Source of the DNA: Chiloscyllium plagiosum
Taxonomy: Eukaryota
DNA: 63,467 nucleotides
NCBI RefSeq assembly: GCF_004010195.1
Contig: NC_057717.1
Coordinates: 37,700,340-37,763,806, forward strand
Direction of reading: 5' to 3'
A model generated the notes under the pieces. The model saw nothing but the letters and a program-made list of their open reading frames with translations. It did not search any database and had not been told where the DNA came from. How positions within the stretch are numbered: the stretch's first letter is position 1; each line of letters begins with the position of its first letter. A program made the translations under genes and the position numbers. Shown piece after piece: positions 14,321 through 57,469 of the stretch.

Positions 14321-14626
14321 AGACACCATCTCCCCCCACGCTTTATGGCCTGGTCTCCTCCTGTCAGGAGCACAACACCGGTTCTGCAATCTTTGGTTGT
14401 TTGGCGATGGACTATTCCCCTGACGTCACCAAGGTAACCTGGAAAAAAGGAGGGGAGCTGATCACGACTGGATTGAAGACTTACCCATCAGTGAGAAACA
14501 AGAAGGGAACCTACACCTTGAGCAGCCAGTTAACCCTGCCCGAGTCAGCGGTACATTGCCCCAGCAAAATCTACTGTGAGGTTCAACACAACGGGTTACA
14601 CAAGAGCAAAGAAATGCCATGTCCAG
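14321..14626 (+). CDS. IGHM: IgM heavy chain CH1 (Cmu1) exon
   Basis: Splice sites TTGTAG| and G|GTAC, phase 1/1, 306 nt. Translates (E)[15 protein letters not shown]...[20 protein letters not shown]...YTLSSQLTL...IYCEVQH...EMPCP, a C1-set domain with the light-chain Cys. Confidence 0.95.
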
Positions 14627-17600: not shown

Positions 17601-17724
17601 TTCTCCAGCACTCTGCACAATTATGATTCCTGTATCCATTAACCACAAGAAACCTTGATATATGAGAACTGATTGTATTTGTTATGAAATTCGTCGGATA
17701 ATGTACGCGATGTGTTTCCTAAAG

Positions 17725-18034
17725 GTCCAGACATTCTCCCACCAACTCTTCTCCTAACTGTGAGCTCCAGTGAAGAAATCGCAAGCAGCAAGTTTGCAAC
17801 CGTCGTCTGTTCAATCATCGAGTTCCGTCGAAGTCAATCTCCGTGAGTTGGTTGAAAAATGGCTGACCCTTGGATTCTGGCTTCTTCATGTCTCCCGTGT
17901 GTGAGGCGAATGGGAACTTCTCGGCGACGAGTCGTCTGATGGTCCCTTATGGTTAATGGTTCAACAGCGCAGTCTATACCTGCCAGGTCACTCATGGAAA
18001 GAACATTAAAGTAAAAACATCACGGCACTCCAGG
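17725..18034 (+). pseudogene. IGHM: IgM CH2 (Cmu2) pseudo-exon
   Basis: AAAG|GT CCA GAC... encodes PDILPPTLLLTVSSSEEIASSKFATVVCSIIEF. A 1-nt deletion at ~17829 follows, then SISVSWLKNG*(TGA 17864)PLDSGFFMSPVCEANGNFSATSRLMVPYG*(TAA 17954)WFNSAVYTCQVTH, a second 1-nt deletion at ~18007, and donor G|GTAAGA. The length, 310 nt, is not a multiple of 3. Confidence 0.92.
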
Positions 18035-18329
18035 GTAAGAGACACATACTGAGAGAGCTACAAATCATTCTGAATTCTGATGTGAATCAAACACACTAAT
18101 TTATAAGGCGGAGTAAACAGCACAGTACAGCTTCTCATTTCCCAACATGCCACGTATCTCATTTCAGTTTGAGTGTTACATTAGCATTGCTCATAATTCA
18201 ACATTTTGGCAAGTCAGAAAAGCATGTTTCCTCTCTGTTGAAGATAGATATATAGACAGTGAGCTTTGTTAAATAGTTTGTTGCCTCACCATGCTGGGAG
18301 AGGCATTCAGAGTGCTGAATCCTTGCCTA

Positions 18330-18660: not shown

Positions 18661-20004
18661 CCAAAACATCGATTTTCCTGCTCATCGGATGCTGCCTGAC
18701 CTGCTGCGCTTTTCCCAGCATCATTCTGATCTCAACTCTGGATTGGCCGAACAGCCTTATTCTGATCATCTATCTTATGATGTTGGGGCCTCAAAATGAC
18801 GTGGTTAAAATATGCAGTGACCCTTACTTGAAAATAAATCAAAATGCGTCCAATGCTTCATTCCCTGCTCAGGAGTGACCTGTTGGCCTTGGACACTGTA
18901 CGACATCAATGTTTATCTGGTACTGAGCTCTTTAACTTCATTTATGGGATCAGACCACAGACCAAGTGGCTATCACATTTGATGAACTGGGATAAACGTG
19001 ATCTAACTGAGTTGCTTTAAGATGCTCTCTGTAATTAGTGGATGCGGCAGGAGAACAAATTCTCGTGGGAATGCTACAATAGGGATGAATGAACTCGGAA
19101 CTCGAGACATGCTGATTTAGCCTGGTTTGGGGTGGCGATGTTTACACAGTGAGTAGTGGATGTCTATAAAATTAGTGTACATTTCCATCGCGTTTGTAGA
19201 TTAATTTAAGACGCTTTTGATTGTTTGTTTTTTCTCCCCTGCACTATGAAGAAATTAAAAAATGCAGCTTGGTAAATAAAGTGAAAGTACAGACCAGTTA
19301 TGAACTAACTGAATAGAGGGAAAGCCTTATGGAGATGGGTGACCTTCTCGATATCCAATGCTATATTCAATGTCTTGTTTTTAGATCTACTCCAAACACA
19401 GCCCACGAGGAACAATGACATAAATTAGAGAATGACATCACACCAATAACGCAATGTATTTTTGATCACGTTAAATATAATGAACAGAATTTCCATGGCT
19501 GTTCACCGCTCCTGTAACACTTTAGAACTCTGCAAAGAGAATAATTATTATTTATTATAATTTGTCCAAAATTTGGGATGTGGTTTAGCAGTCAGCGTGA
19601 CCAGCAGCACTTGCACCTAAAGGTTATGATCATGGAAATGAACTCATTATATTCAGATTACTCTTGTCACAAGTATCAATAGATGGTGTTAAGTGAGAGA
19701 CAAACTCCGAAAGAAAGGTCATTCCATGGGTTACATAATGGTATCTTCGATGATTTTACTTTTTTCACAGGTTTCACTTGTTACAAAGCCAGTGTTCTTT
19801 CGGAATAATTACGCAGGATATGTCATAGGTAATCACAAATGTTTCACAGATCAAAATACATCAACAATAGTCAGCATCGTGTCAGCAATAGTTGGAGTTG
19901 CCATTTTGAAGGTGGTGTCTTCACCCTGTGAAGAAGTAATCTGAAGATTGGCTGTTTGTATCAGAAAGGGGCATTTTTCATTGACTTTGATTTTTGTTTC
20001 ATAG

Positions 20005-20313
20005 AAGATACCGTGTGCCACCCTAACACCGTTAAAATCCTCCCACCGCCAGTAGAGCAAGTCTTACTGGAGGCGACGGTGACGTTAACCTGCGTTGTGT
20101 CCAATCTTCCTTCTGGAGTCAACGTGACCTGGAAACAAGAAAAGAAGCCTCTGAAATCAGAGATTGCTGACCAGCCTGGACAGAATCCCGACAGCGTGAT
20201 CAGCAAATTAGACATTTCTACTGAAGCCTGGCTGACTGGCGTTACTTTTGAATGTGTGGTGTACCATCAGAATCTGCCGACTCCGCTGAGAAACTTCATC
20301 CACAAGGAGAAAG
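20005..20313 (+). CDS. IGHM: IgM heavy chain CH3 (Cmu3) exon
   Basis: Splice sites TTCATAG| and G|GTGAAC, phase 1/1, 309 nt. Translates (E)[33 protein letters not shown]...VTWKQ...[22 protein letters not shown]. Confidence 0.95.
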
Positions 20314-20767
20314 GTGAACGGTGAGATTAAAACACAAAGGATCCCATGTGTAATCCAGATCCAGTTACATCAATGGCAGGCTTTGATTGGTAATGAACAA
20401 ACACCGTTGGGGGCATTAATGATGCATCTGATGGCAGGATAGCTAAGTAGCTGATTAAGAAAAAGATGGACCAAAGGATATTGTATTCTGATTAAGTCAG
20501 ATATAGTAGGAAGAAGCCTGGGTTGTGACGTCACCATCATCAACGACAGTTGGACAGAATGCCCTTGTTGTGGGCTGGAAACATGGAGGCAACTTTCACA
20601 TTAAACTTTACTATTTTTACTGAACAGAATGTGTACCATACTGCTCCTTTAGAAAACGAAAGTGAATAAATCCCTAATTAGAAATGGCTTATCTTAATAT
20701 TTAGTGAAATTGTGATATTGGTTCAGGATGTTTTGGTTGATATATATTTGTCTCCAATATTCTGCAG

Positions 20768-21159
20768 TGAATAATCCGCTGGAGCCATCAGTGTCGGTCC
20801 TCCTGCCACCAACAGAAGAAATCTCCGCTCAGAGGTTTCTCTCCCTCACTTGTTTAGTGAGAGGTTTCTCCCCCCGAGAGATCTTCGTCAAGTGGACAAA
20901 CAATGACAAGCCGGTGAATCCCAGTAACTACAAGAACACTGAGGTGATGGCGGAGAGTGACCACACCTCCTTCTTCATCAACAGCCTGTTATCCATTACA
21001 GCGGAGGAGTGGACCAGCGGTGCTTCTTACTCCTGTGTGGTGGGACATGAAGCAATTCCATTGAAGATCATCAACAGAACAGTCAATAAATACAGCGGTA
21101 AACCGAGTTTCGTAAACATTTCACTTGCACTGATGGACACTGTTAATTCATGTCAATAA
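20768..21159 (+). CDS. IGHM: IgM heavy chain CH4 (Cmu4) exon with secretory tailpiece
   Basis: Acceptor CTGCAG|, then [37 protein letters not shown]...[11 protein letters not shown]...[20 protein letters not shown], the shark mu tailpiece with a sequon and penultimate Cys. An internal donor G|GTAAAC after 21097 serves the membrane form. Confidence 0.96.
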
Positions 21160-23885: not shown

Positions 23886-24013
23886 ATTCAATAGATCGCA
23901 CTTGGATTGAAGACTATGAGGATGATAACAGCAACATCTGGACAACTGCTTCCACGTTCATCACCTTGTTCTTCCTGAGTATTTTCTACAGCGCTGCCGT
24001 CACTCTGATGAAG
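23886..24013 (+). CDS. IGHM: IgM transmembrane exon TM1
   Basis: Acceptor CATAG|, translating (D)SIDRTWIEDYEDDNSNIWTTASTFITLFFLSIFYSAAVTLMK, then donor |GTGAGA. Contains the conserved antigen-receptor TM (CART) motif. Confidence 0.95.
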
Positions 24014-27440: not shown

Positions 27441-27444
27441 AGAT

Positions 27445-30279: not shown

Positions 30280-30916
30280 AACATAGAACATAGAAAAGTA
30301 CAGCACAGAACAGGCCCTTTGGCCCACGACAGTGTGCCGAGGTTTAACCCTAATGTAAAATATAATAACAACCTACACAACCCTCAACTCACTGCTAAAC
30401 ATTTGCATGTCCAGCATTCGCTTAAATGTCCCTAATAACTCTGCTTCCACCACCACCTCTGGCAATGCATTCCATGCATTCACAACTCTCTGTGTAAAGA
30501 ACCTACCTCTAACGTCTCCTCTATACCTTTCTCCTAATATCTTAAAACTATGACTCCCTCGTACCAGTCAATACTACCCTGAGGAACATCCTCTAGCTAT
30601 TGCCTTTATCTATTCCTCTCATTATTTTGTATACCTCAATCAGGCCTCCTCCCTTCCTCCTCCTCTTCAGAGAGAAAAGTCTGAGCTTATTCAAGCTTTC
30701 TTCATAAGGCAAGCCCTCCAGTCCAGGCAGCAACCTGGTAAACCTTCTTTGCACCCTCTCAAAAGCCTCTATATCTTTCCTGTAGCAGGGCGACCAGAAC
30801 TGGACGCAATATTCCAGGTGTGGTTTCACCAGGGACTTGTAGAGTTGTAGCAAATCCTCGCTGCTCTCAAACTCGATTCCCCTGTAAATGAAAGCCTAAA
30901 CACCATATGCTTTCTT
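30280..30916 (-). mobile_element. CR1 LINE 3' end with tandem tail
   Basis: ORF 30593..30853 reads LQLYKSLVKPHLEYCVQFWSPCYRKDI; tail AACATAGAACATAG. Confidence 0.9.
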
Positions 30917-33735: not shown

Positions 33736-36649
33736 CTGTTAAATGTCCGAATAACAATTCACAACAGGAGATTTGACCTGCTATATTTTCCATTACGGAC
33801 TGCAATGAATCTACCTCATGGGATAACGAAACTCACCAATGTGAGTAAAAATCTCTTAAACTTTGGGCAAAATCCAGGCTGTTGTCTTAATAGAATAAAC
33901 TCCAAACAATAATGCAACAAAGAGAAGCAGATTGAAGTCAAATGATGCACAGGTTTGATGAAGAGCAAAACCCCTTCTACCCTAGCAGGAAGGCAAGTAG
34001 AAAAGTTGCGCATTTATATAACAACTTAATGCAATCTCAGAGTATCCTAAACCATCTCTTTCCAGATCTCTGAAACAAGTGCAGAACCTCTGGGGCCACT
34101 GTCAACTACATGCTATCAAACCCAGGGAGTCATAGACGGAAATATCAGCATGTGCCCATGTAACAGCTTAAAATGTGTGTTTAATACCTCCGCTCGAGTA
34201 ACTAGCAAAATTGTTTCGTGGTATGAACAATAAATGAGAATAGGTCTCTTGGCCCTTCGAGCCTGTTCCACCATTCAATAAGATCCTGACTGACCCGATT
34301 TTAACAAGCAAATAAAACATTCAACTAACAATATCCCACTTTAGNNNNNNNNNNNNNNNNNNNNNNNNNNNNNNNNNNNNNNNNNNNNNNNNNNNNNNNN
34401 NNNNNNNNNNNNNNNNNNNNNNNNNNNNNNNNNNNNNNNNNNNNNNNNNNNNNNNNNNNNNNNNNNNNNNNNNNNNNNNNNNNNNNNNNNNNNNNNNNNN
34501 NNNNNNNNNNNNNNNNNNNNNNNNNNNNNNNNNNNNNNNNNNNNNNNNNNNNNNNNNNNNNNNNNNNNNNNNNNNNNNNNNNNNNNNNNNNNNNNNNNNN
34601 NNNNNNNNNNNNNNNNNNNNNNNNNNNNNNNNNNNNNNNNNNNNNNNNNNNNNNNNNNNNNNNNNNNNNNNNNNNNNNNNNNNNNNNNNNNNNNNNNNNN
34701 NNNNNNNNNNNNNNNNNNNNNNNNNNNNNNNNNNNNNNNNNNNNNNNNNNNNNNNNNNNNNNNNNNNNNNNNNNNNNNNNNNNNNNNNNNNNNNNNNNNN
34801 NNNNNNNNNNNNNNNNNNNNNNNNNNNNNNNNNNNNNNNNNNNNCATTTGCCAGTAATGTATCTGAGACAACCGTACATATTGATCATAATCCATTAAAG
34901 GTTTTTGGAGAAATTTAAGAACACACATTGTAGACTGGTTTTCGGGGCATATCTTTATGAGAAAGTCTCTACATTATTTATAGGACATTCTGACTCTCCA
35001 GCAATTTCTCTCATGTTGTTAGATTCCACATTATAAATACAATTTAGCCACATGACAAATCAAACTTACTTCTTCGTCACTGCTTTCTTTTCTGTAGAAT
35101 TGAGACTATCATTTTTTGAATGCTCTGTCTGTTAAAGTGCAATTGATCAATAACCACAAAATGAAAAGCAAACGAAAATGGTGTCTGTGTCCATAATTTA
35201 TTGCCAGATATTAAAAAAAACAGAAGTCTCTTAATGCAGCATGTCAAGCCTTGATCAGCCAATTTAAAGAAACAAGGTCATGCTCCAATCAGCCATGATC
35301 GTGATGAATGGCAGAGCAGACTCGAAGGATTGCCTGGCCTCCTTCTGCTCGTATTTTCTACGTTTCTAAACTGGCTTAAATACCCAAGAAAACTGAAGAT
35401 TCAGAATTATAAACCTTCATCAGACAATTTAGGTAAACAGGTTACACATTAGATTTTGTAGTCAGCATATAAAATTAGTCCATATGATCTCCCAGTATTG
35501 TTGCTTGAGGCTACGATTACAGTTCATTAGAAGCTTTCCCACCACTAAGATAAACCTGGTTGCTGGATTTATCCAGACAATTTTGAACAAAATTATTTTA
35601 AATGTTGTGATTCTCCTGTCTCTGATTCCATGTCTGTATTTGACCAGGATAAGGTTGTTGTGGATATTACCACTGCAGCTTCAATGTTACTTTTCTCTGT
35701 ATCCGCAGGTATCTCCAATTCAGTTGTTTTCAGTTACCAACACTCAATGACAATCAGCCTTTCTAATTGAAGCAGAAATTGCTGGAGATGCTGAAGAGGT
35801 CACAGGACTCAAAAACATTAACTCTGCTTTCCCGACACAGATGCTCCCAGACCTGCTGAGATTCTCCAGCAGTTTCCTTTTTGTTTTAGATTTCCAGCAT
35901 CGCAATTTTGTTTTATTTTAGCCTTTCTAACATTCTGTCAAACTTCATCCCATCCAAGTCCCGACTACATTTTTTATTCGCCATGAACTGGACATCAACT
36001 TCCTCTTCATAATACCTCAGCCAGGCCCCTGCCCCTTTGAAGTTTAAGCATGGGATTTATGATCATTGGCCCCACTCATTCGTTTGCTACCCTTTCACTG
36101 TTTGTGACTAATAATTACTATTGTATCCCCTTTTAAAGTTAGCTGCCAGTCTCCCTTACTCTTTATTTCCCCTCTGGACAGTCTATATTTAGCACAGTTC
36201 TCACTCGGCGTAACAATAATCCAAATCCTTTGCAAAATCATGCAGGGAATTAGAGTATTGTTTTTGCCGCCATTTCCTGTTTGTGGAAATGTTAAGCTGT
36301 ACTGTACATCCGAAGCTGAACATTACCCAGATTTGTGCTCAAATGTCCTTGCTCAAATGCCCTCTTGCCCCATTGAACTCAGCGCTCCTCCAACTCAGAA
36401 TTATTCTGGATTGTTCCTTGTTCATTTTATACACAAGGTAAAATCTTTTGATACAATGTTCAATGCTTCCTTAAATGATCCCTGTCTAATATTTAATGAA
36501 TTTTATAAAAATTGTGTGAATGCACGCAAGATATGAAGTTGGCAGTACAGATTGAAGATATCATTAGGATTCTGAACATTATAAATAGGACCGTGGCATG
36601 CAAAATAAGGAAATTATGACAATTAGTTATAAACAGTCCTGCCTTTCCC

Positions 36650-37210
36650 TCATTTCTAGTATTTATGCAGCACGCTTCAGGAAGGGATTTGAGAAGGTGC
36701 ACAAAAGATACACAAAAATGGTACCCGAGATGAACAACTGGATAACTATGAGGATAGTTTGAAGAAGCTCGGGGTGCTCTTTATGGAGAACAGAAGATAA
36801 AGAAGACATTTTACACGTGTCCAAAATCATGAAGGATTTGGATAGAGTAGGATAAAAGTGTAGGAGAATGCATCTGGATTGGTTACTCTTTGAAGGGTTT
36901 GTGTGGACTTGTTGGGCCAAGTGGCCTGTTTCATACTGTACTATTCTATTTTAAAAAGCCTTGAGAAGAAAAGGACACTGATTTAAGATGATCAGCAAAA
37001 ATAAAACAACAAGGATTACTTTAAAAAAAACAGCAAAGTTCGGAAAATGGGATGTTCTGCCTAATAGTGTAGTGGTGGAAGCAGCTTCAACTGAGGTTTT
37101 CAAAGGAATCTAAAATTTTCATAAGGAGAGGTTTCACAGTATCACATAGTAAAAGGATTTGCGAGTGAACATAGGCAAGTTCCTCTTTGAGAGCTGATCA
37201 AATCATTGCC
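36650..37210 (+). mobile_element. Degenerate CR1 3' fragment
   Basis: GAGAAGGTGCACAAAAGATACACAAAAATGGTACC...TATGAGGATAGTTTGAAGAAG resembles EKVQRRFT...YEERL. Confidence 0.65.
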
Positions 37211-39679
37211 TCCGAGTTGTTACCATTGATTGTTGTACAATATTGCACAAACTACCAGCTCACCAATTATTTCCTAATGGTTTGTCCTATTCTGATATAA
37301 TGACTAACTTAGTCATGGCTGTAACTAAACTTACTTTGCAATTACTTCACTTGATCCAGGAGAACCTGCATTCCCATTTCCCTCACTGTTTGCACTGACA
37401 ATGTTTCCAGAACTGCAATTCATCAAAGAGCACAAATTAAGTCAGTTAACATCAGTAAACTTATCCAGAATTAAGTCCAAGGCAATTTAACAACAAAAAA
37501 AAATAGTCGCAGACTTGAGATTCAATATTCCAAGCCTGGTCGACTAGTTTTCTTGATTTAGTCAATGACTTTGCAATTTTAATAAATCGCATTATTTGCC
37601 ATAGTGATAAGAAAAGAACAGATATATCCATGCAAAGTCAGAATCAGGTGTAACAGACCTTTAGCTGATCGTTGTTCTCTTCAGAAATAGTGATTATAGG
37701 CAGGAAAGGTCCTTTCAGTGTAAGTCTAATGAGTAGTTGTAGTTCATTCCGTAGAGTGTAAGTGCTAGGTAGCCCAACATCTTAGCTCAGTGAAGGTGAA
37801 GGGAGTGGCAATTAGGTACATTAGTTCTTTTGCCAGTCAATCAAACTGCTCTCTCTTTGATCATATTGAGCTTCCTGACTATTGTTGCAATTAAACCAAT
37901 CACCAGGTGAGCAGTGACGTTTCCAATGCTCCCGAATTTAGCCTTGTAATGGTGAAGTTAATGAGGGGGTAATGACGAAGCAGTATACCTAAATCCCAGT
38001 CTTGTAATCTTGATAATGTTACTAGTTATTGATACCAGCACCACCCATCCCACTGGAGTGTATTGACAATGCTGTCCTATGATCTGGAAAATGTTGGTGG
38101 AACTTTGTTTGTTTTCAAGATGCATCATGAACCATCTTGGTCGTGTTGGTATGTGGTTATTGTAACTTCCACAGGATGTCTACAGTACACCACACTGAGG
38201 GAACGCTGGGGTTGGGGTGTGGAAGCAACAGTACGGAGTGAAAAGAAGAAAAAACGATTTCCTCAGTATGTCACCCTTGTTTAAAGCCATTTCTGGACTA
38301 TGCAAGACCTTCACACTGAACGACAAGCAAAATTCAACCGACCATTGAAAGACTGATTCAAGACTGGTCCCTCAAAATAAGCCAAGCATTTCTGAACCAG
38401 TCAAGCAGTTGTTTTCTGTCATTGTTCTCATCTGTGTTGGTGTTCACCACGCTGCCATGGGATGCCTTCGTGAGGCAATCCTGACATAATCGTACAACAA
38501 CTGCCAGCACTTCCCTTTCAAATTATTGGATCCCTAACATAGCAGATTTAATCTGACATTTTACCAAACTTACTTGCCAATTTGTTTACTTTAGTTTCTG
38601 ACAAACTTAGGTTTCCACCTAATTCACAGTGTGAGGTGTCAACAATTTCACAACTGCAACTGGTCATAAAGTACCAGTTAAATCATTTTAAATATGTGCA
38701 TGATCACAAAGTTAATATTTGGCACTTCTTATCAACATTGAGAGTTTTGGCTGTGAGGGCAGGAGCTGGTGGGTGGGGAGTAAGGAGGTCAAATAAAGAC
38801 TTGTCTGCACTAGGACAGAGGGAAAACCTCCTAAATGCAAGAATTTAAGTTTAACTTCCTTATCTCTGAAAAAGAAACTCAAGCTCTCTATACCCTATTG
38901 CCAATTTAACCCTTACAAGCACAATTAGTAACTCAATATTTGATTCAGAATCTGAACATTGTAATTACACATTATTCAAATTTACTGAAGGTGCATGTCA
39001 TATTAGTCAGTATTGGCTGTTTTGTTGAAAAGAGGATTTTATTCATTTTCCTTTCCTGCTCCTTCATCCTTTCGGAGTTTACTGAAAGATCTGACCATAA
39101 TAAACCCAGAAGTAATTACAGGTCTCTGACCCAGAGCAGTGTAATAACTTCAGTATTTATGCATTGATGACATCAGTGAAACGGTGTGGATGTGATGATC
39201 CCTGTATTAATTCACCATGAAAGCACTTTATAAGCTTCATTCAAACAAATAACTATCACTAGGGAAGGTGCCTGACTCCGTGGATACACATGGCCTCTGG
39301 CCAAGTTAAATTATAACAAGTGGAAAGCATTCAATGGCGACACTGTATGGGAGATAGACCAAGGCGAGGAGACCAGGAGCTGGTCCCAATCCGTCGCCAT
39401 ATTTCTTCAAATATGTAGCCATATTTCATCAAATGTCACCAAACTGTGGAGACCATGACAATGAGTTTGGAGGGAGTGTAGAATAGGGGATGGTTGGGGG
39501 AGTGAGGATGAGCAGGAAAGAGAAACAAAGCGAAGCGATGGAGGTGGGGTGAAGGAGAGGAACCCATTTCTGCATTATTTTCACTATGGCTCCAATGTCC
39601 AGAAATAGAATCTCAGTATTGATCAGCAAGCAATTTCCTATCTCAGCATTTAGGATGATGGTACTACTGTTTAAGACAA

Positions 39680-42600
39680 CTCTGTCTCAAATATTAAATT
39701 ACTCGGGAGGCAGTCTAGCAGCCTCTTTAATGTAGCTACTGTTGTCTGAACTGGCAACCGCGCATTGCACAAAACATTTTGAAGGATTCAATGGTTCTCC
39801 AACATTCCCTTTTCACATTATTGTATTCCAAATAAAACATAATTAAACCACATCAAAATCAGATCAAATCAAACTTGCTTCTTCATGGTTGCCCTCACGT
39901 CTGGCAAACTTTGATTCCCATCCTCCTGACAATCTCATCTGGCAAAATGTCCCCAGCCACAAGTCATCATGAAGCACACATTAAACAAAGGACTTACACC
40001 TATAAATGACTTACAAACATTTGAAAAGAAACCCTGAAGATCAAAAGGCTCTATTGAGCTGATACAGCATTTTTTTAATAAAGAGGAATCACTGTTATCA
40101 CCAGGAATAATGCAAATATTGGGAGGGGCTGTGGTCTGGAATGTAATGTTTGCTATAGCACTGGGCGGTGTTGTCAAGAGGAAGTCCCTCCAGAACTCTT
40201 ACAGAAATCCCTGATCTCCAGAAATTTCTTTTCACATTACATTCTGTTTAAAAAAGGCCACTTTCAAAAGCTATGATTGCAATATATGTTGTTTTTTTTT
40301 TCAACTTTCACAGAGGTTTGCAGGACACCATGGTCTGTTCTTTTTGAAGAGATGGGGTGAGGGGAGTTAGCCAATGTATTAGTATTGGGAAGCAGAGAGT
40401 TAGGTAGTCAATGTGTTTTCAATATATTTAGCCTCATTGCACAGTCCAGTGCTTAGAAGTGAACAACTGAAGGCCTGAACATTGAACGGCTTGAAATGAT
40501 TATTGAAAGACTTTGTGTTTAATGCATGCTCAATTATTCACTGGCTTTTAACTGGGAGGTGGCAGGATTGGGAAAGTGGCAGGGAGGGAGTCTGGCACCC
40601 TCCCATTGCTAAGCCATGCTGATATAGACCCGTTCTCTTTGACATCTTAACACTCCACGTGCTCTCAAGCCTGCCTCCCTCATTTCCCTGATTGTGCCCA
40701 GCTTTGCAGGCTCAGTGATGATCAGTATGAATAGTAGGACTCAGAAATGTGCTGATCTATCCTCCCTCTTACTGGAGTAGCAGCTCTTGAAATTAAGCTG
40801 CACCGTCAACTGATGGCTAAGCCTCTTCATTTTAGATTAGAGAGGTGCTGGAAAAGCACAGCAGGTCAGGCAATATCTGAGGAGCAGGAAAATCGACGTT
40901 TCGGGTAATAGCCCTTTATCAATGAAGAATCGTTTCATTGGTCACTGCTGGCAACATACCATCCTTGGCATACGCCAAAGCCTCCAGGTTTCAGTCCCAG
41001 CATTAGGTCTGCAGCATTAAATGCAAGCTTCCACCTAAAATGTCTTTTTATAATACTAACGATACAGCAAAGATTACATGCCAGTCAATAATTTATTTAA
41101 TGTAAAAGAACAAACTGTGGAAGTTGACAATCTGAAAGAAATACAGACGTTGCTGGAGAAACTCAACATATTTTGCAGTATCTGTGGACAGAAAGCAGAG
41201 TTCACCTTGAGTCAAGTGACCCTTCTTCAGAGAGGTCTGAAGTTCTGAACAGGAGTCATTCAATTAAAAACATTAACTCTGCTTTCACTCCACAGATACA
41301 GCCAGATCTGCTAGCTGATAGTAGACAGTCACACATTGTATTCAGCTTATTTTTCAATGACCTCCTTAGTTTCTGGAGAAACAGAATCACCAGCTCCCTT
41401 GCACTTTCAGCAGTTGATGTTTTCAGAGCTGCAAAGGGTCAAGTGCCATTAAGTCAATTGAAGCAAACATTTACGTTCAGAATAAAAACATTTTTAGAAA
41501 CTTGAATAGGAGTGTCAGGATTTCAAGCCACTGACAGTCAGGCTAGAACATGGAAATGAAGGATGTGACAAACCCATTTCTTCAATATGTGTTGCATAGT
41601 CTAGAAAAGTCTCAAATAAAGAGCTTATGGCAATTATAGAATGGTAGCTAACTGTCCAATTTCTCCATTTAAGACCTTTGGCTACTGGCTCTTCATACGG
41701 GATTGACTTTTCCTCATCAATGAGTATTGGCTCAACAATTGCAAACATCAATGGTGGCACAGAAAGGTTTGCCACTCTGCTGTTGTTGCAATTAAACCAT
41801 CAGCTCTTTAGATTGGGCCGTTTCATTCTTGGGATAGTAACCCAGCAACAGCTTCTTGATCTGGCCACGTCAGCAGCATGTCAACATTAGGGGTGCCATT
41901 ATTCACAGCAGCGCTGGCTCCAGCTCTCAGTCCAAGCAGCAGGGTTCCACCACAATTCACAACATTATCACTGCAAATGTCTTGTTTTAAAAAAAAACAC
42001 CACAATCAAACTTCCAGGAAAAATACACACTTGGGAGGCAGAGCCCAGCAGTTTCCGTCATGCGCTAACTATGGCCTGGAATAGTGTATTTGACATTGTT
42101 CTCGCATGTATGCAGAAGGAAATGCCTACATAACTTCACAGGAATTTCTGGTTCTCCAGTAATAACCTTTATTCCAAAATTAATCAGGAATTAAATTGCA
42201 CTTTGGATCAAACTGACACTTTAATTTCTTCAGTTGTTCCTGATGCACTATAGGTTTCATTTCCGTCGCAGTTTGGATTGTCACACGAACTATGCCTGCA
42301 ATTGGTCATAAAAAGATAAATGTAGTTATTTAAATGAGCATTTCCCTCAATTGTGTGCCAGCTATTTGAAAGATTGAAGATTCTGGTTTCAGGACTGCAG
42401 CCTGCATTCAGCCATTTGACTGAAACTGGTCACACTCCAGATGGGTGACTACAATAGATGGTGAATTTGTTCTTCAAAACCTTTGTTTCTGGTGGTAACG
42501 ATTAGAGACAGAAATGGGATATCAAATGCTTGAATGTATTCATATTTAGAGTTTAGGAACTTCAATTAGAAAACGCAAGCAAACGTACAATGAAGTATTT

Positions 42601-45600
42601 TTGATGTCCTCTCCAAATACAATATTTTTGAATCAAAATTCTGAAGCCCTAATTCTAATGCAGATAACAGAGAGACAGGAATGCAAATGCTCTTGCCTGG
42701 AGTGGTGTTCCCTGCGCTGCTGTGTGATGTTTCCTGAAAAGGCCCGAGAAAGTAATTTCCTTTCTATTTTGTGTACTCTGAATGAAGCAAAACATTAATC
42801 ACATATTGTTTTCAAATTTACTTTTTTTATGATAGATTTTGGACTGCACGGTTTTCCATCGACTTTGTACTTTGGACTGTCAGGTGATCTGCAAATAGTC
42901 AGAAAAGTGTTATTCAGTCATTTTAAGCGTACATCTACATCCACAATAAAATCATCATTATAAACCTGAAACATTGAGTAAGTATTTCAAGCCATTGACA
43001 GCTAGTTTTGTAAAACTAGTTCAAGACACAATTACAGTAGATGGTGATTTATTACCCCAAAACCTTCATTGGCTGTTTGCAAGACAAGATAATGAGACTG
43101 GAGTGTGGTAGCAAAGAAAGGGAGACACGATGCAACAAAATCATTTCTTCAATACTTTATACTTGTTACAACGTCTCAAAATATCTCAACTAAAGAGCTC
43201 CAGATCCAAATGGAGACGAGGCAACCATTTTTCCAATGTCTCCAATGAGGACCTTTGGTACTGTTCCAACATACAGGGCTGAATTTTCCACGTCAACTGG
43301 CTCTTGCCAAGATTCCCACGAGTCAGGCCAAGTGGAAGAGAGTTCAGGATCAAAGCCCAATCCCTTCTGCACCATTATATTATCTAGTCAGTGGTGGGCA
43401 AATGAAGGCACCAATTGAGAGCCACTCATGTCTGTCTGTGTTGTGATCAATAGAGCTCCTCAACTCCCACAGTGAGCGTTTGCCTGCAAATCCCTTTGGT
43501 ACAGGCTCAGCAATACCCATCACTAATGGCAGAAAAGGAAACGTCGTTGCCCTGCCTTCACTCTGTTATTGCTGTTAGCTCCTGGGATCATGCCATTTCA
43601 ATAATGTTTTTGTGACCAGGCAGCAACTTCTGTATTAGCTACTGTCAGTACTATGCCACCCTTGGCACTGCCAACCACCGCGTTATAATCCAGCTCTCAG
43701 TTCAACCAGCAGGCTTCACCAGAATTCATTAAATTATGATTGCAAAAGTCTTGTGTAAGAAAGAACACCATCTTCCTACTTCTGGATGTAATACATATTT
43801 TGCAGGTAACTAGGTTCCTGCTACGTGATTCCTGGATGCAGAAGGAAATATCTACATGACTTCACAGGAACTGCTTGTTCTCCAGTAATTGCCTTGGAGA
43901 ATATAATATCAAATGAAGCACGAATTACATAAAAGATCAAACATATTTTCTAGTTATTGCAAACAATCCTGGAGAACTATATTTTCCATATACCATGCAG
44001 TTTGGATTGTCAAACTTGCCATGCCTATAACTGGTCAGGCAAGATAAATTCAGTCCTTAAATTAGCATTTGCCTCCAGCTACTATTGAATGCCAGCTGCT
44101 TGAATGGCTGAAGAGTCTGGATTCAGTCCTGCAGCTTGAGTTCAGCTGCTTTTGTTAAACTCCTTACAATCCAGACGCATACTGCAATCAATGCTGATTT
44201 TATTCTTCAACCCCTTTCATAGGTTTGATGGACATTAAAGCTGGTGATAAGGGTGAGTGTGTGATGGGATACATATTTCTTGAATATATTCATTTTAAGA
44301 GACTAAAATAATCAGGAATAAGTAACCCAAATATGAAAGCAATTTTGAATTCAAGCTTCCTTGATGTCCTCTATTTATTTTGAAAAGAACTTTCCGACCC
44401 AAAGAACAATGTGGATAATGGAGAGGCAGTATGTGATTGCTCTGGTCGGGAATGGTAATCTATGCACTGCTGTGTGGTGTTTTCATGAAGGGTCTGTACG
44501 TTATCTTACCATAACTGCCTGACCACCAGCAACGTACTTACACTTTCTTGTACTCTGAATGAAGCAAAATCATGGTCACATATCATATCAAACATACTTT
44601 TTCGAGACCGCCTTAGATTTGAAAGGCATGGTTTCCCATCTCCATCGCAGTTTAGGCTGTAACGTTTACCATGCTTGCAACTGAACAGGCAAGTTTAGTC
44701 ACTGAAATCAGCATTCGTCTGCATATACAATTGTGTGCTAGCTGCTGGAATGGCTGATGGATCTGGATTCAATATTACAGCACTTATTCAGCTGTGTTTT
44801 TAAAAACTGCTCACACTGCAGAAGGATGATTGCATGAGTTGGTGATTTTTTTGTCAAACTTACATAACTGGTTTGCAAGAAGTCAGAGCACAGGTAGGGG
44901 GAGAGGCAGAGAATGTCGGGGAGATGGAAATTTTCCTTGCAGAATAGACCAGGGAGGTAAATGCGAGGTAAAACGTTCAGGACCTGGCTGATGAAGGGGA
45001 AATTTTTCACTGAAGAAATTTGAATGTTTTAAAGCAATGGCTTTTCCACCAACTCTGCTTTTCTTTCTGATTTACAGCATTCGCAGTTCTTTCGGGTTTT
45101 ATTTGGATGCTTTCTGTTGTTCTAGTTAAATAAGAGCTTCAATCTGTAGGAACAAAACAAGCGTTAGAGATGCACATTTAGTGCGATTGCTGTGGTCTGG
45201 TCTGCAAAGGTTTTTGTTGCACTGCTGGCACATGGTTTTAAGAGGCAGCCCCTGAACAATCTAAACAACAGCTCTCCAGCAATATCCTTTCACGTCTTTG
45301 AATTCTGAATCAAGGATCATTAATACACAAACTGGAGCAAACTTAATTTCTGCAACTGTCCCTGGAGAAATTAGATTTCCTGGTTCTTCACAGTATACGC
45401 AGCTGAAATTAGTCATGAAAGAAGACATTTTAAGCTAGGTCTTGTATGCACAATTGGCTATTGGCTGGTATAAAATTGCTGGATGCTCAGGGATTCAGTA
45501 TTATACTTTTTGATCAACTGTATTTATTAAGTAGATCAACTTCTTAATGGGACAATGGAAAACAGTAGTTTTTTTTCTTTAAAACTTTCATAATGGGCTT
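39680..45600 (-). pseudogene. Decayed ORF built from ~7 tandem Cys/His-rich domains (unidentified)
   Basis: Recurring minus-strand peptides, e.g. CLFSCKHGK.YSLNCDGDGKPC...FDMICDHDF...QQCIDYHSRPEQSH (44700-44430); CRHSSCDNPNCDG...YYWRTRNSCEVM..EQCQIHYSRP (42300-42070); CWRAVV*IVQGLPLKTMCQQCNKNLCRPDHS (45290-45185); FWRSGISVRVLEGLPLDNTAQCYSKHYIPDHS (40225-40128). Many stops and frameshifts. Confidence 0.6.
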
Positions 45601-45790: not shown

Positions 45791-46013
45791 ATTAGATTTT
45801 TTAGATTACATTACAGTGTGGAAACAGTACCTTCGGCCCAACAAGTCCACACCGACCCGCTTGGACTGGGGAGGAAACCGGAGCACCCGGAGGAAACCCA
45901 CGCAGACACGGGGAGAACGTGCAAAGTCCACACAGTCAGTCGCCTGAGGCGGGAATTGAACCCGCGTGTCTGGCGCTGTGAGGCAGCAGTGCTAACCACT
46001 GGGCCACCGTGCC
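45791..46013 (-). mobile_element. HE1-type tRNA-derived V-SINE (internally deleted)
   Basis: Minus strand reads GGCACGGTGGCCCAGTGGTTAGCACTGCTGCCTCACAGCGCCAG...GGGTTCAATTCCCG...TGCACGTTCTCCCCGTGTCTGCGTGGGTTTCCTCCGGGTGCTCCGGTTTCCTCCC (V-domain). Confidence 0.92.

Positions 46014-46014
<1 letters not shown>

Positions 46015-46071
<57 letters not shown>
46015..46071 (+). repeat. (GT)n microsatellite
   Basis: Perfect GT run of ~28 units. Confidence 0.98.
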
Positions 46072-46072
<1 letters not shown>

Positions 46073-46529
46073 CTGTGACAGAGAGGGGCTGACAAGCAAA
46101 CAAAATCTCTAATCTCTCAGAAAAATGCAAACATTATAGACATAATAAAGCAACTTTGTTAATGTGACTGCTGTAGGTTGGTGTTTGTTGCATTGCTGTA
46201 GCATGTACTCAGATAGAAGCCCCTCCATTGAACTTCCAGGAAGTGGCACTAATTTCCTTTCACATTGTTGTTTTCTAGATGAATCTTAATCACTGCATTC
46301 ATTACTGGAATCTCTTCTGCCTTGGAAGTGTCACAGTTTCCATATGTGTTACAGCACAAATTAAGTGATTTTAAACAAACACTTGAAAAATTCAACCATT
46401 GAAAAAGCTCTGAAGATGGAGGATTTCAGCATTATAAACTTGTTTGTTGGATCTTTACATTGAAACTCCAATTTATCAGTTTAATCAAACTGCCACATCC
46501 CATACAAACAGGGATGAGTTAGATATTCA

Positions 46530-47254: not shown

Positions 47255-49280
47255 AGATGGTCGTGTGAGGGAACCTTGGTTGGCGAGGGAGGTTGAATGT
47301 CTTCTAAAGAGGAAGAACGGGGCTTACATAAGGTTGAGGAAACAAGGTTCAGACAGAGCATGGGAGGGATACAGGATTGCCAGAAGGGATCTGAAGAAAG
47401 GGATTAGGAGAGCTAAGAGAGGGCATGAAAAAACTTTGGCGGATAGGATCAAGGATAACCCCAACGCCTTTTATGCGTATGTGAGAAACATGAGAATGAC
47501 GAGAACGAGAGTAGGAAGCAAGAGAGGAAATTGCAGAGCCGTTGGCAATGATCTTTTCGTCTTCACTGTCAACGGGGGTGGTACCAGGGGACTGGAGAGT
47601 GGCGAATGTTGTGCCCCTGTTCAAAAAAGGGAATAGGGATAACCCCGGGAATTACAGGCCAGTTAGTCTTACTTCGGTGGTAGGCAAAGTAATGGAAAGG
47701 GTACTGAGGAATACGATTTATGAGTATCTGGAAAGACACTGCTTGATTAGGGACAGCCAGCACGGATTTGTGAAGGGTAGGTCTTGCATTACAAGACTTA
47801 TTGAATTCTTTGAGGAGTTGACCAAGCATGTGGATGAGAGGAGAGCAGTGGATGTAGTATACATGGATTTTAGGAAGACATTTGATAAGGTTCCCCATGG
47901 TAGGCTTCTGCGGAAAGTCAGGAGGCATGGGATAGAGGGGAATTTGGCCAGTTGGATAGAAAACTGGCTAACCGGTCGAAGTCAGAGAGTGGTGGTAGAT
48001 GGTAAATATTCAGCCTGGAGCCCAGTTACAAGTGGGGTTCCGTAGGGATCAGTTCTGGGTCCTCTGCTGTTTATAATTTTTATTAATGACTTGGAAGAGG
48101 GAGTCGAAGGGTGGGTCAGTAAATTTGCAGATGATACGAAGATTGGTGGAGTTGTGGATAGTGAGGAGGGCTGTTGTTGGCTGCAAAAGGACTAAGATAT
48201 GATGCAGAGCTGGGCTGAGGAGTGGCAGATGGAGTTCAACCCTGCCAAGTGTGAGGTTGTCCATTTTGGAAGGACAAATAAGAATGCAGAATACACTGTT
48301 AACGGTAGGGTTCTTAGTAAGGTGGAGGAGCAGAGGGATCTTGGGGTCTATGTTCATAGATCTAAATATAGCTTTAAATTAAGGGGGGGTAGATATAGGA
48401 CTGATGTTAGGGGTAGGTTCTTCACTCAGCGAGTCGTTAGTTCATGGAATGCCCTGCCAGTAACAGTGGTGGACTCTCCCTCTTTATGGGCATTTAAGAG
48501 GGCATTGGATAGGTATATGGAGGATAGTGGGTTAGTGTAGTTTAGGTGGGCTTGGATCGGCGCAACATCGAGGGCCCAAGGGCCTGTACTGCGCTGTATT
48601 CTTCTATGTTCTATGTTCTATGTTCTAATCTTTGAAAGTTGCCACTCAGGTGGATAGTGCTTGTAAGAAGGCCTATGGTATATTAGCGTTCATTAGCAGA
48701 GGGATTGAATTCAAGACTCGTGAAGTAATGTTACAGCTGTACAGGACCTTAGTTAGGCCACATTTTGAGTACTGTGTGCAGTTCTGGTCGCCTCACTTTA
48801 GGAAAGATGTGAAAGCTTTGGAGAGGGTGCAGAGAAGATTTACCAGGATGTTGCCTGGAATGGAAAATAGGTCGTATGAGGATAGGTTGAGAGTGCTAGG
48901 CCTTTTCTCATTGGAACGGAGAAGGGTGAGGGGTGACTTCATAGAGGTTTATAAGATGATCAGAGGAATAGATAGAGTGGACAGTCAGAAACATTTTCCA
49001 CGGGTACAACAGAGTGTTACAAGGGGACATAAATTTAAGGTGAAGGGTGGAAGGTATAGGCGAGATGTCAGTGGTAGATTCTTTACCCAGAGAGTGGTGG
49101 GGGCATGGAATGCGCTGCCTGTGGGAGTGGCAGAGTCACAATCATTGGCGAACTTTAAGTGGCAATTGGATAGGTCCATGGATGGGTGCTTAAGCTCGGA
49201 CAAATGTTCGGCACAACATCGTGGGCCGAAGGGCCTGTTCTGTGCTGTATTGTTCTATGTTCTATGGTCTATGTTCTATT
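47255..49280 (+). mobile_element. Young 5'-truncated CR1 LINE (RT domain to tail)
   Basis: ORFs 47542..48045 (NYRPVSLTS, QHGF, YMDFRKTFDKVPH, GVP*GSVLGP), FADDT, and 48632..49324; (TTCTATG)n tail. Confidence 0.95.
48364..48627 (+). mobile_element. Nested CR1 3'-end insertion
   Basis: Interrupts host GTTCATAGATCT|TTGAAAGTT with ATCT repeated on both sides, and ends in (TTCTATG)n. Confidence 0.85.
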
Positions 49281-49744
49281 TTACCTTTCTTTGTCATGTC
49301 AGCTTTTTCTTAATTCCTTCGTGAGTCATGGACTGTGAGTCAACACTTGGAAGATTTGAGCAAATACAGATTTGTTTTAAATAGCTGCTCAAGTTATATG
49401 ATCCTAACCATTCTGAACTCCGGTTAATTCTCAGTTCCAAACGAACACCGCAGTAATGAACATTCATATAAAAAAGGCTGAACCGCTGAATATAATTAGA
49501 GTATACCAAAATAACAATAGGATTCTTGTCAGCCCCCCTCTNNNNNNNNNNNNNNNNNNNNNNNNNNNNNNNNNNNNNNNNNNNNNNNNNNNNNNNNNNN
49601 NNNNNNNNNNNNNNNNNNNNNNNNNNNNNNNNNNNNNNNNNNNNNNNNNNNNNNNNNNNNNNNNNNNNNNNNTCATGAAATGTAAGATGTCTGTCAGGCA
49701 AATGGATAGTATAAACTTCCACTGTATTATGTCAACCTTTTAGC

Positions 49745-52700
49745 AAAACAACAATGGTTGACTCAGACCCGTGACCTGTGCGTCTTGCTTGATGTGGGAG
49801 CTTAGGAACGTGGCTGACGCTCCAGACTCTTACACGTGCAAGAAGTTTGTCCAGCTGCAGCTCTTGTTTGACCGCATGGTGACTCTGGAGCTGCGGATGG
49901 ACTCAATGTGGAGCATCTGTAATGCTGAGGATGCCGTGGATAGCACGTTTAGTGAGCTGGTCACAACACAGTTTAGAATTGCTGAGGGAGACAGTGAATG
50001 GGTGAACAAAAGACAGAAAAAGAGTAAGAAGACAGAGCAGGTGTTCCCTGCCGTCATCTCCCTCCAAAACATGTATACCGTCTTGCATGCTGTTGGGGGA
50101 GATTACTTACCAGGGGAGGGCAGCAGTTGCATGGTTCATGGCATCGTGGCTGGCACTGCTGTTCAGAAGGGCGTAAAACGACTCGTAGGGCAATTGTCAC
50201 GGGAATTTCTTGTGAAGGGAGTAGATAGGCGGTTCAGTGGCCAGAATGGGACTTATGGATGGTATGTTGCCTTACAGGTGCTCAGGTCAGGTATGCCACC
50301 GATCAGCTGCAGAGCGTTCTAAAAGGGGAGGGTGAACAGCCAGTTGTCTTGGTGCCTATGGACACCAACGATATAAGTAGAAAATGAGATGAGGTCCTCA
50401 AAGAAGAATTCAGGGAGCTAGGAGAGAAGTTAAAGAGGAGGACCTCAAAGGTAGTGATCTCGGGATTACTACCAGTGCTACGTGCTAGCCAGCGTAGAAA
50501 TAAAAAAAAGACAGGTTGAACACATGGCTTGAGAGATGGTGTCGAAGGGAGGGGCTCAATTTGTTGGACATTAGGACTGGTTCTGGGGCAGGTGGGACTA
50601 TTACAAAATGGACGGTCTACATCTGAACCAGACTGGAACTATTGTCCTTAGTGGGTTTTTTTTGCTACTGCTTTGGGAATATTTAAACTAATGTGGCAGG
50701 AGACTGGGAACCAGAAGAGAAAACAAGTAGGCAGTGATGTGGAGATTGGAGACTGTAAGAATTATAAAAATAGCATTCATAAAGGGAAGAGTAGACAGAG
50801 AGGAGATGAGCACAAAAAAACTGGTAGCCTAAAATGCATCTACTTTAATGCAAAGAGTATAGTGTGTAAGGCAGATGAACTTAGGGCTTTGATTGGTGCC
50901 TGGAAGTATCATGTCATTGCAATCACAGAGGCTTGGTTGAAGGAAGGGCATGAAGATTGGCAACTAAACATCCCTGGATATAGATGCTTCAGAGAGGACA
51001 GGGATGGAAGTAAAAGGGTGGGGTGCAGTTGCATTGCTGGTCAAGAACGACGTCAGGGCTGTGCTAAAGGAGCACACTATGGAGGTCTTGGTTAGTGAGG
51101 CATTATGCGTGGAGCTGAGAAATTAGAAGGGTGCAGTTACACTGTTGGGGCTGTATTACAGGCCTCCCAACAGTGAGCATGTGGTAGAAGAACAAATAGG
51201 TAAACAGATTATGGAAAGATGGAGAGGCAATAGGTAGTGGTGATGGGAGATTTTAATTTTCCCAACATTGACTGGCATATACTTAGCGTCAGAGGTCTGA
51301 ATGGGGTAGAATTTGTAATAAGTGTCCAGGAGAGTTTTGTACTGCAGTATGTTAATAGTCCGAAGAGGGAAGGGGCCATATTTTACCTGGTACTGGGGAA
51401 CAAGCCAGGACATTGGTAGACGTTGCGGTGGGAGATTTCTTTGGGAACAGTGACCACAATTCTGTAAGTTTTAGAATACTCATGGATAAAGAAGAGAGTG
51501 GTCCTAAGGGAACAGTACTAAACTGAGCCAGGACCAATTACATCAAAATTCGGCAGAAGCTCGGAAATGTGGAATGGACACAGCTATTTGAAGGGAAGTC
51601 CACATTTGAAACGTGGGAGGCTTTGAAAGGTAGGTTAAAGATAGTGCAGGATAGGCATGTCCCGTTAAGGTCAAAGGATAAGAAGTGCAACATTCGTGAA
51701 TCGTGGATGACGGGAGAAATTCTACGACTAGTCAAGACGAAAAGGGAAGCATGCATAATGTCTAGGCAGCTAAGAACAGAATGGGCTCTGGAGGAATATC
51801 GGAAGAGTAGGACAAGTCTTAAACGAAGAATCAAGCGGGCTTAAACGGGTTATGAAATAGCGTTAGCGAGCAGAATTAAGGAGAATCACTAAGCATTTTA
51901 TTCTTATACAAGAAGCAAGAAAGTAATTGGAGAAAGGATTGGTCCACTAAAGGATAACGAAGAAAGGCTGTGTGTCGAACCTGAGAGAATGGGTGAGATT
52001 CTGAATGATTACTTTGCATCAGTGTTCACTGAGGAGAAGGACATGATGAATGTTGAGATTATAGATAGAAGTTTGATTAGTCTTGATCACGCTGACATAC
52101 GTAGGGAAGATGTGTTGGGTAGGCTAGTGGTTATTAAGGTGGACAACTCCCCAGGACCGGATGGGATCTATCCCAACTTGCTGAGGGAGGCGAGAGGGGA
52201 AATCGCTGGGGCCCTGACAGATATCTTTGTGGAATCCTTAAATACAGGTGAGGTGCCGGAGGATTGGAGGGTAGTTTATGTTGTCCCCCTGTACAGGAAG
52301 TGTAGTAGGAATATTCTGGGTAACCAAAGATGAGTGTGCATGACGTCAGTGGTGGAAAGGTTGCTGGAGAAGGTACTGAGGGATAGGATCTACTTATATT
52401 TTGAAAAGAATGGGTTTACAGTGATAGGCAAAATGGTTTTGTGCAGGGGCGATCGTGCCTTACCAACTTCATTGAGTTCTTTGAGGAAGTGAGCAAGTTG
52501 CTAGATGAAAGAAGGGCTGTACACGACATATACATGGACTTTAGTAAGGTGTTTGATAAGATTCCCCATGGTAGACTAATGGATAAATTGCAGTCATATG
52601 GTGTTCAGGGTATTCTAGCTAGGTGAATAAAGAACTGGTTGAGAAACAGGAGACAGAGAGGAGTATTTGAAGGGATTTTCTCGAAATGGTGAAAGGTGAC

Positions 52701-57460: not shown

Positions 57461-57469
57461 TTTTCTAAA

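What the first reader, a model, noticed from the sequence alone, without database searches (positions are those of the whole stretch)
39680..45600. Fossil gene built from ~7 copies of an unrecognised Cys/His-rich domain
Seen: minus-strand repeats at about 45600-45170, 44860-44400, 44230-43800, 43100-42650, 42480-42030, 40550-40100 and 40090-39680. They share the approximate consensus SP.I....L.C..F...LN....L.P.S..IQ.A..QL......C..SC.HG...NPNC.GDG.PC...L...K..FD..C..CF.......YWR....C.V.QG.P.....QQC..H..RPDH.H.C. DNA-level similarity is visible between 42110-42860 and 43840-44640. No introns are apparent within the domains. The ORF track misses it because of stops. I cannot assign a family. The spacing suggests multi-zinc binding; it could be a lineage-specific immune-linked gene or a viral/Polinton-derived relic carried along with the Ig unit.
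Basis: partly seen in the sequence, partly recalled or inferred. Interest (0 to 1): 0.7.

Follow-up and report, generated by a model that had tools for sequence, protein, structure and literature searches.

The report
Stray RGL1 exon array beside IgM
The repeats are twelve mostly broken copies of one short exon of the signalling gene RGL1 with their flanking introns, likely copied into a shark antibody (IgM) gene cluster and likely multiplied along with it, rather than a new zinc-binding protein.

Summary
The repeats are real: 12 copies, not 7, on the minus strand at 46527-34933. They are not an intronless Cys/His domain. Each unit holds a short exon (78 nt in 5 of 12) between splice-like sites, plus intron. 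A profile of the pieces matched 1 of 1.84 billion proteins, catshark RGL1 (E 1.7e-19), over the exon part only. RGL1 carries this 26-residue unit once in rays, chimaera, two squalomorph sharks and tetrapods, but 6 to 19+ times in galeomorph sharks. A profile built from RGL1 alone finds 10 of 12 window exons above controls. No other RGL1 exon is detectable in the window, and only 2 of 12 exons look intact. The array lies antisense, 11 kb behind a broken IgM cluster, and appears multi-copy in related sharks. Best reading: a dead genomic fragment of RGL1 riding in an amplified IgM unit. The 'YWR...QQC...RPDH' half is translated intron. No paper on it was found.

The parts
46144..46527 (-). Unit 1 (exon remnant about 46354-46299; splice sites lost); best match is the first RGL1 repeat
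   Evidence: (10.1 bits)
45169..45585 (-). Unit 2 (exon about 45402-45347, shortened; AG kept, donor lost)
   Evidence: (20.1 bits)
44421..44867 (-). Unit 3 (exon 44674-44598, 77 nt; acceptor lost, GT kept)
   Evidence: (8.9 bits)
43783..44219 (-). Unit 4 (exon 44024-43947, 78 nt, open; donor lost); 13 of 25 residues identical to a white-shark RGL1 repeat
   Evidence: (14.5 bits)
42669..43070 (-). Unit 5 (exon 42888-42822, 67 nt; AG and GT kept, out of frame)
   Evidence: (14.3 bits)
42041..42484 (-). Unit 6 (exon 42295-42218, 78 nt, AG/GT, open: looks intact)
   Evidence: (7.0 bits)
41156..41614 (-). Unit 7 (exon 41428-41351, 78 nt; internal stop, donor lost)
   Evidence: (14.8 bits)
40106..40549 (-). 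Unit 8 (most decayed; exon remnant about 40360-40297, not found by the RGL1 profile)
39711..40124 (-). Unit 9 (exon 39956-39879, 78 nt; acceptor lost, internal stop, GC donor)
   Evidence: (12.1 bits)
38398..38863 (-). Unit 10 (exon 38653-38574, 80 nt; AG and GT kept, out of frame)
   Evidence: (18.4 bits)
37171..37607 (-). Unit 11 (exon 37412-37335, 78 nt, AG/GT, open: looks intact); 13 of 25 residues identical to a white-shark RGL1 repeat
   Evidence: (12.3 bits)
34933..35330 (-). Unit 12 (exon 35136-35070, 67 nt; acceptor lost, GT kept; not found by the profile); best pairwise match is the last RGL1 repeat in 4 of 5 proteins
14321..14626 (+). Context: IgH constant exon 1 (C1-set)
17700..18040 (+). 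Context: IgH constant exon 2, broken by a frameshift and two stops (approximate ends)
19932..21159 (+). Context: IgH constant exons 3 and 4 with secretory tail; best PDB matches are IgM
23886..24013 (+). Context: IgH transmembrane-type exon (read from the sequence; the motif is recalled, Pfam gave no family)

Best explanation
The array is twelve mostly broken copies of one short RGL1 exon with flanking intron, likely copied as genomic DNA from a galeomorph-shark RGL1 gene into an IgM cluster and likely multiplied with that cluster as a dead passenger. Step 1 (shown in database proteins): RGL1 of galeomorph sharks carries a tandem array of a 26-residue unit inside its REM (RasGEF_N) domain, and annotated isoforms differ by single units, as separate exons would. 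The 78-nt length with the same intron phase at both ends keeps the frame, which would let unequal crossing-over multiply it (inferred). Step 2 (inferred): at least 11.6 kb holding the whole array, first to last unit, was duplicated as DNA (introns are kept, so not through mRNA) to a place about 11 kb behind the IgM transmembrane exon, on the opposite strand, without the other RGL1 exons. Step 3 (shown): it decayed; 10 of 12 exons have lost a splice site, the frame or both. Step 4 (inferred): it spread with the roughly 61-kb IgM unit. It most likely makes no protein.
For: Exon anatomy: AG at the aligned acceptor in 7 of 12, GT at the aligned donor in 6 of 12 (GC in 1), 78 nt in 5 of 12; five donors score in the top 0.1% of the minus strand of 33-47 kb (weights recalled). 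Forward search: 1 hit among 1.84 billion proteins, E 1.7e-19, 12 stretches, best stretch profile 10-34 of 92, named RGL1 of Scyliorhinus torazame with RasGEF_N, RasGEF and RA domains. Reverse search with a profile from database RGL1 units only: 10 of 12 exons score 7.0-20.1 bits, all on the minus strand in the exon frame; best of 5 control sequences 5.9 bits. Phase: 6 of 7 near-full-length window exons end in AA, and 45 of 50 junction residues in RGL1 arrays are N or K. Isoforms differ by one 25-26-residue unit in Cetorhinus, Carcharodon and Scyliorhinus; a sheep isoform has an insert exactly at the unit's start. Order: unit 1 best matches the first repeat in 5 of 5 proteins and unit 12 the last in 4 of 5; collinearity p=0.007 (Carcharodon), 0.013 (Cetorhinus), 0.036 (Mustelus). 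No other RGL1 exon scores above controls, while simulated exons with 60% substitutions scored a median of 22-32 bits. Contigs of 4 runs from 3 related species cover 41330-45040 in 30 of 30 bins at summed depths of mostly hundreds to thousands, against many single contigs at 10-65. Window 2-2194 recurs at 61249-63467 at 91%.
Against: Units 8 and 12 were not found by the RGL1 profile, and one off-target stretch in IgH exon 2 scored 10.9 bits. Collinearity fails with Scyliorhinus (p=0.59) and Heterodontus (p=0.35), and the two lamniform proteins are not independent. RGL1 intron DNA could not be compared, so intron homology to RGL1 and the breakpoints are untested. The YWR block of the intron is more conserved among copies (51.5%) than the exon (47.0%), which I cannot explain; a column-shuffle null gave it a codon signal (p=0.007), though a stricter null did not (p=0.19). 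Summed contig depth is no copy number by the tool's own warning, and linkage of the other copies to IgM was not seen. 2,446 N bases, one gap directly behind unit 12, could hide exons; the sensitivity control had no frameshifts.
Confidence: 0.8

Rival explanations
1. The array is what is left of the species' own RGL1 locus: an IgM cluster landed in or beside the gene, the gene died, and the array then spread with the cluster, so this lineage would lack intact RGL1.
For: The array seems complete from first to last unit. No carpet-shark (orectolobiform) RGL1 appears among the best 120 of either RGL1 search or among the listed members of 10 clusters, while other shark and ray orders do.
Against: Scyliorhinus canicula is missing from the same lists too, so absence is weak. 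The searches score only word-sharing candidates within length limits, and 20 of 35 members of one cluster were not listed. The window's species is not established. No remnant of the neighbouring RGL1 exons was found.
Confidence: 0.1
2. The captured piece is kept because its intron motifs were put to use as a 3' regulatory element of IgM clusters (for example IRF-type sites), or its antisense splice sites trap read-through transcripts.
For: Position behind the transmembrane exon. IRF-like motif 6 times against 1.0 expected (p=0.005; motifs recalled). The YWR block is conserved at 51.5%. The stretch is present throughout in 3 related species.
Against: It was 1 of 9 motifs tested, and the copies share ancestry, so the count is not independent. 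Octamer, E-box, NF-kB, MEF2 and RUNX motifs are not enriched. Of the 40 differences to relatives shown (of 363), 21 fall in the 55% of bases that are unit, so units are no more conserved than spacers. The neighbouring IgM gene is itself broken.
Confidence: 0.07
3. One reading: a fossil intronless gene of about 150-residue Cys/His multi-zinc domains, immune-linked or of viral/Polinton origin.
For: A column-shuffle null gave a codon signal in the core (p=0.005). One piece had a weak Pfam AZUL hit (E 0.0047, 17.6 bits, below the 23.8 cut-off; 1 of 15 pieces). Units 2, 3 and 5 can be read through with one stop each.
Against: The signal vanishes under a null that keeps neighbouring columns together (p=0.20). 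All 5 copies of 78 nt stop just after the donor. The only protein match is RGL1, over the exon. The first Cys of the AZUL-like spacing is the TGC of the splice acceptor, and the profile of that part found no AZUL structure in the PDB at E up to 10.
Confidence: 0.03

Closest known systems
[quoted passage not shown] XP_072367689.1, XP_078417690.1, XP_041064284.1, XP_078074186.1
   Same: The 26-residue unit, its tandem repetition, its junction phase and partly its order.
   Different: The window has only the repeated exon; no REM core, RasGEF or RA exon is detectable; 10 of 12 copies are broken.
Tandem exon duplication of symmetric exons (general class; PMC8373072 seen as search listing only)
   Same: Frame-keeping exon multiplied with its flanking intron; isoforms differ by one unit.
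   Different: In galeomorph RGL1 the copies are strung together in one protein (6 to 19+), and here the whole array sits outside its gene.
Shark IgH miniclusters (PMC12227049 section 6 read; PMC8692893 passages read)
   Same: [quoted passage not shown]
   Different: Neither paper's searched text describes the DNA between clusters; 'RGL' does not occur in PMC12227049's main text or its 2 held supplements.
Gene fragments carried in segmental duplications (recalled, no call)
   Same: Intron-bearing piece of a cellular gene, copied as DNA, decayed, and multiplied with a larger unit.
   Different: Here the carrier would be an antibody gene cluster.

Membership tests
RGL1 repeated REM-loop exon | Peptide similarity to the 26-residue RGL1 unit | tested here: met
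   Forward hit E 1.7e-19; reverse profile 10 of 12 above controls; 9-13 of 25 identities in the 7 near-full-length copies
RGL1 repeated REM-loop exon | 78-nt exon with the same phase at both ends, AG...GT | tested here: met
   78 nt in 5 of 12; AG 7 of 12; GT 6 of 12; both with an open 78 nt in 2 of 12; junction residues N/K 45 of 50
RGL1 repeated REM-loop exon | Same order as the RGL1 array | tested here: inconclusive
   p=0.007, 0.013, 0.036 for 3 proteins; p=0.59, 0.35 for 2
RGL1 repeated REM-loop exon | Flanking introns homologous to RGL1 introns | not testable with these tools
   No eukaryotic genome is held
RGL1 repeated REM-loop exon | Closer to RGL1 than to RALGDS, RGL2 or RGL3 | not tested
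   Paralogues were not compared directly; the only full-library hit was RGL1
Intact RalGDS-family gene | REM core, RasGEF (CDC25) and RA exons present | tested here: not met
   No score above controls in the window
Zinc-binding Cys/His domain (incl. AZUL PF16558) | One continuous frame with conserved ligands | tested here: not met
   Stops after the donor in 5 of 5 copies of 78 nt; no codon signal downstream
Zinc-binding Cys/His domain (incl. AZUL PF16558) | Pfam score above the curated cut-off | tested here: not met
   0 of 15 pieces; best AZUL 17.6 < 23.8 bits
Viral or Polinton-derived gene | Homology to viral or Polinton proteins | tested here: inconclusive
   None in the full-library scan; the viral-contig scan did not run; the cellular match makes it unnecessary
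Known structured RNA (miRNA, snoRNA array) | Rfam match or conserved hairpin | tested here: not met
   No Rfam match in the array at E up to 1; best local folding z below -2.5 in only 2 of 12 units, at different places

The most novel reading that the evidence does not exclude
An IgM cluster invaded and killed the RGL1 gene in this shark lineage, and the founder cluster then seeded the tens of IgM clusters across the genome, each tagged with the RGL1 exon array. The array would be a datable marker of how shark IgH clusters move and multiply, and would point to a natural loss of a gene kept in other jawed vertebrates.
Probability: 0.12. Interest if true: 0.65.

Novelty: new variant of a known kind. 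Interest (0 to 1): 0.4.

Why it matters
The finding turns from an unknown zinc domain into two smaller, apparently undescribed facts. First, RGL1 has a 6- to 19-fold tandem exon expansion in its REM domain in galeomorph sharks, visible in RefSeq models. Second, a dead copy of that array sits in an IgM cluster unit and seems multi-copy in related species. The expansion arose after galeomorphs split from other sharks (inferred), so the passenger gives an upper age and a neutral tag for the clusters that carry it. How shark IgH clusters duplicate and spread could then be traced without relying on the selected Ig exons. It is no new protein family or mechanism.

Tried and rejected
Own genome: none held. 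RNA: no RNA holder listed. Laying 4 RNA or presumed RNA runs gave deep cover only at short stretches whose reads run on into unlike sequence (dispersed repeats); none of the 15 joints shown (of 40) links two exons; one run laid nothing; two short unspliced contigs lie at 37048-37197 and 39823-40012. This is no evidence on expression. Word-index protein search with the window profile, longer proteins only: nothing. PDB profile searches: only E 0.27-0.75 matches to a guanylyl-cyclase receptor loop and a C2H2 finger, judged chance. ESM Atlas look-up and viral-contig scan did not run, so neither collection was examined. Metagenome scan with a 20-mer from exon 4: 0 matches. Alignments A1-A3 and A6 were set aside for misplaced fragments or partial cover; A4 was searched. 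Plus-strand Ser/Thr/Pro-rich bits in the spacers are short and broken. 'AFSSANL'-like stretches at 4184 and 5597 as the upstream RGL1 exon: tblastn E about 1 and 33, and not among the top profile hits. Tree of the 12 units: no branch reached the star level; units 4+6 came closest (94/96). AlphaFold model of basking-shark RGL1: mean pLDDT 37, so it cannot test whether the array is disordered; it shows no secondary structure at 175-372 between two helices. Earlier scan findings: nothing in 5 look-ups. Literature: 9 searches listed no paper on RGL1 exon repeats in sharks or RGL1 DNA in Ig clusters; subscription papers are not in the library.
Full report
Observation. An iterated nhmmer profile seeded with three copies finds 12 units of about 400-460 bp on the minus strand between 46527 and 34933; the best hit on the reversed window is E 6.1. 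Pairwise identity is 34-62%. Exon starts are 404-2276 bp apart. Spacers are partly homologous too: units 4-5 and 6-7 with their spacers form a higher-order duplication of about 1.75 kb. The array starts about 11 kb behind a transmembrane-type exon of an IgH gene on the plus strand. That gene has four C1-set exons, the last with best PDB matches to IgM, and its second exon carries a frameshift and two stops. No V exon was detected in the sequenced parts scanned.

Anatomy. The DNA alignment shows, at the same columns, an acceptor-like site ending in AG (7 of 12) and a donor-like site starting with GT (6 of 12, GC in 1 more). The distance is exactly 78 nt in 5 of 12 copies, and 77 and 80 nt in two more. 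Five donors rank in the top 0.1% of all minus-strand positions of 33-47 kb (weights recalled). In all five 78-nt copies the frame holding C..C.G.G runs into a stop within four codons after the exon end. A column-shuffle test did give a codon signal in the core (p=0.005) and in the YWR block (p=0.007). A null that keeps neighbouring columns together removes it: p=0.20 downstream of the donor, 0.19 for the YWR block, and 0.18 for the exon itself. The copies have thus diverged mostly without visible coding constraint.

Identity. A profile of 14 in-frame pieces, scored against 1.84 billion representative proteins, gave one hit: E 1.7e-19, 12 stretches, best stretch at profile 10-34 of 92, which is the exon. 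The source names it RGL1 isoform X14 of Scyliorhinus torazame; Pfam shows RasGEF_N, RasGEF and RA. It holds 16 tandem units of 21-27 residues inside the REM domain. Because summed repeat scores can mislead, I ran the reverse test. A profile from database RGL1 units alone scores 10 of 12 window exons at 7.0-20.1 bits, on the right strand and frame. The best score in five control sequences is 5.9. One off-target stretch in IgH exon 2 scores 10.9, and units 8 and 12 are missed. The seven near-full-length exons share 9-13 of 25 residues with their best RGL1 stretch; six end in AA, and 45 of 50 junction residues in RGL1 arrays are Asn or Lys.

Distribution in RGL1. Of the 120 proteins listed, 90 have single-unit spacing, 8 (all galeomorph sharks) are expanded, 1 is a sheep isoform with an unrelated insert at the unit's start, and 21 were not parsed. 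Counts are 6 in Heterodontus, 8-9 in Cetorhinus, 9 in the longest Carcharodon isoform, 12 in Mustelus and 16 to 19+ in S. torazame; one in Pristiophorus, Heptranchias, the rays shown, Callorhinchus and tetrapods. Annotated isoforms differ by single units, as separate exons would. Window unit 1 best matches the first repeat in 5 of 5 proteins and unit 12 the last in 4 of 5. Collinearity is p=0.007 with Carcharodon, 0.013 with Cetorhinus and 0.036 with Mustelus, but 0.59 with Scyliorhinus and 0.35 with Heterodontus. The window's owner is thus likely a galeomorph shark; its species was not determined.

State and context. Only units 6 and 11 keep AG, GT, 78 nt and an open frame. Profiles of the RGL1 parts before and after the array give nothing above controls in the window, whereas simulated exons with 60% substitutions and no frameshift scored medians of 22 and 32 bits; 2,446 N bases remain unseen. 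Twenty runs of three related species hold 12-24% of the sampled words. In the 4 of 20 that I laid, contigs cover 41330-45040 in 30 of 30 bins, spacers included. Summed depth is mostly in the hundreds to thousands, with single contigs up to 1,664, while many listed contigs have 10-65. The tool warns that this is no copy number; I read it as multi-copy. Window 2-2194 recurs at 61249-63467 at 91%, which suggests a tandem unit of about 61 kb. Shark IgH genes occur as one to about 100 miniclusters per isotype (PMC12227049, section 6 read), and 37 IgM clusters are reported in one bamboo shark (PMC8692893, passages).

Mechanism. Shown: the identity of the exon, its expansion in galeomorph RGL1, the decay, and the lack of other detectable RGL1 exons. 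Inferred: multiplication in RGL1 by unequal crossing-over of a frame-keeping exon; DNA-level copying of the array, antisense, behind an IgM gene; spread with that cluster. I put this at 0.8. Unexplained: the intronic YWR block is better conserved among copies (51.5%) than the exon (47.0%).

Prior knowledge. Nine full-text searches (listings seen) gave no paper on this array or on the RGL1 expansion. 'RGL' is absent from the main text of PMC12227049 and its two held supplements and from PMC7677710. PMC10751288 mentions only rgl-like genes in the shark MHC class III region (passages). PMC4279169 (passages) added nothing. Subscription journals were not searched.

Verdict. A real feature, misread. 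It is a new variant of known kinds: tandem exon duplication and a gene fragment carried in a duplicated unit. Interest 0.4, mainly as a marker of IgM cluster history and as a pointer to the shark-specific RGL1 expansion.

Noticed in passing
P0001, P0006, P0007, P0008, P0172 (database proteins): Galeomorph-shark RGL1 carries 6 to 19+ tandem copies of a 26-residue Ser/Pro/Asn/Glu-rich unit inside the REM domain, with isoforms differing by single units; one copy in other vertebrates examined. No paper found.
   Followed up: partly
No carpet-shark (whale, zebra, bamboo, epaulette, nurse) RGL1 appeared in two searches or the listed cluster members; Scyliorhinus canicula was missing as well, so this is only a lead.
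   Followed up: partly
window 228-1821, 1832-3473, 61476-63094, 63105-63467: A second tandem family of about 1.6-kb units (77-91% alike) on the 5' side of the IgM unit; no Pfam family in six frames of 1-3473. Could be another captured fragment.
   Followed up: partly
window 17700-18040 (+): The second IgH constant exon has a frameshift and two stops, and no V exon was detected in the sequenced part, so this cluster looks like an IgM pseudogene.
   Followed up: partly
window 9700-9760 (+): A YYCA reading followed by a degenerate heptamer-like stretch, perhaps the end of a decayed V segment (motif recalled).
   Followed up: no
window 47300-61000, 27300-27900, 30270-30920: Several decayed LINE copies (RVT_1 at 47515-48042), one pair at 78% over 2.2 kb (50263-52440 and 57575-59733).
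   Followed up: no
window 41100-41310; 4187-4275 with 5509-5597; 45810-46015: Short inverted repeats and dispersed elements; those at 35800-35900, 36850-36930, 40830-40920, 41100-41310 and 45050-45100 draw nearly all RNA reads. The element at 45810-46015 looks like a tRNA-derived SINE (recalled).
   Followed up: no
window units, about 45-110 bases after each donor site: This intronic block is the best-conserved long block among copies (51.5%) and holds an IRF-like motif in several units; unexplained.
   Followed up: partly
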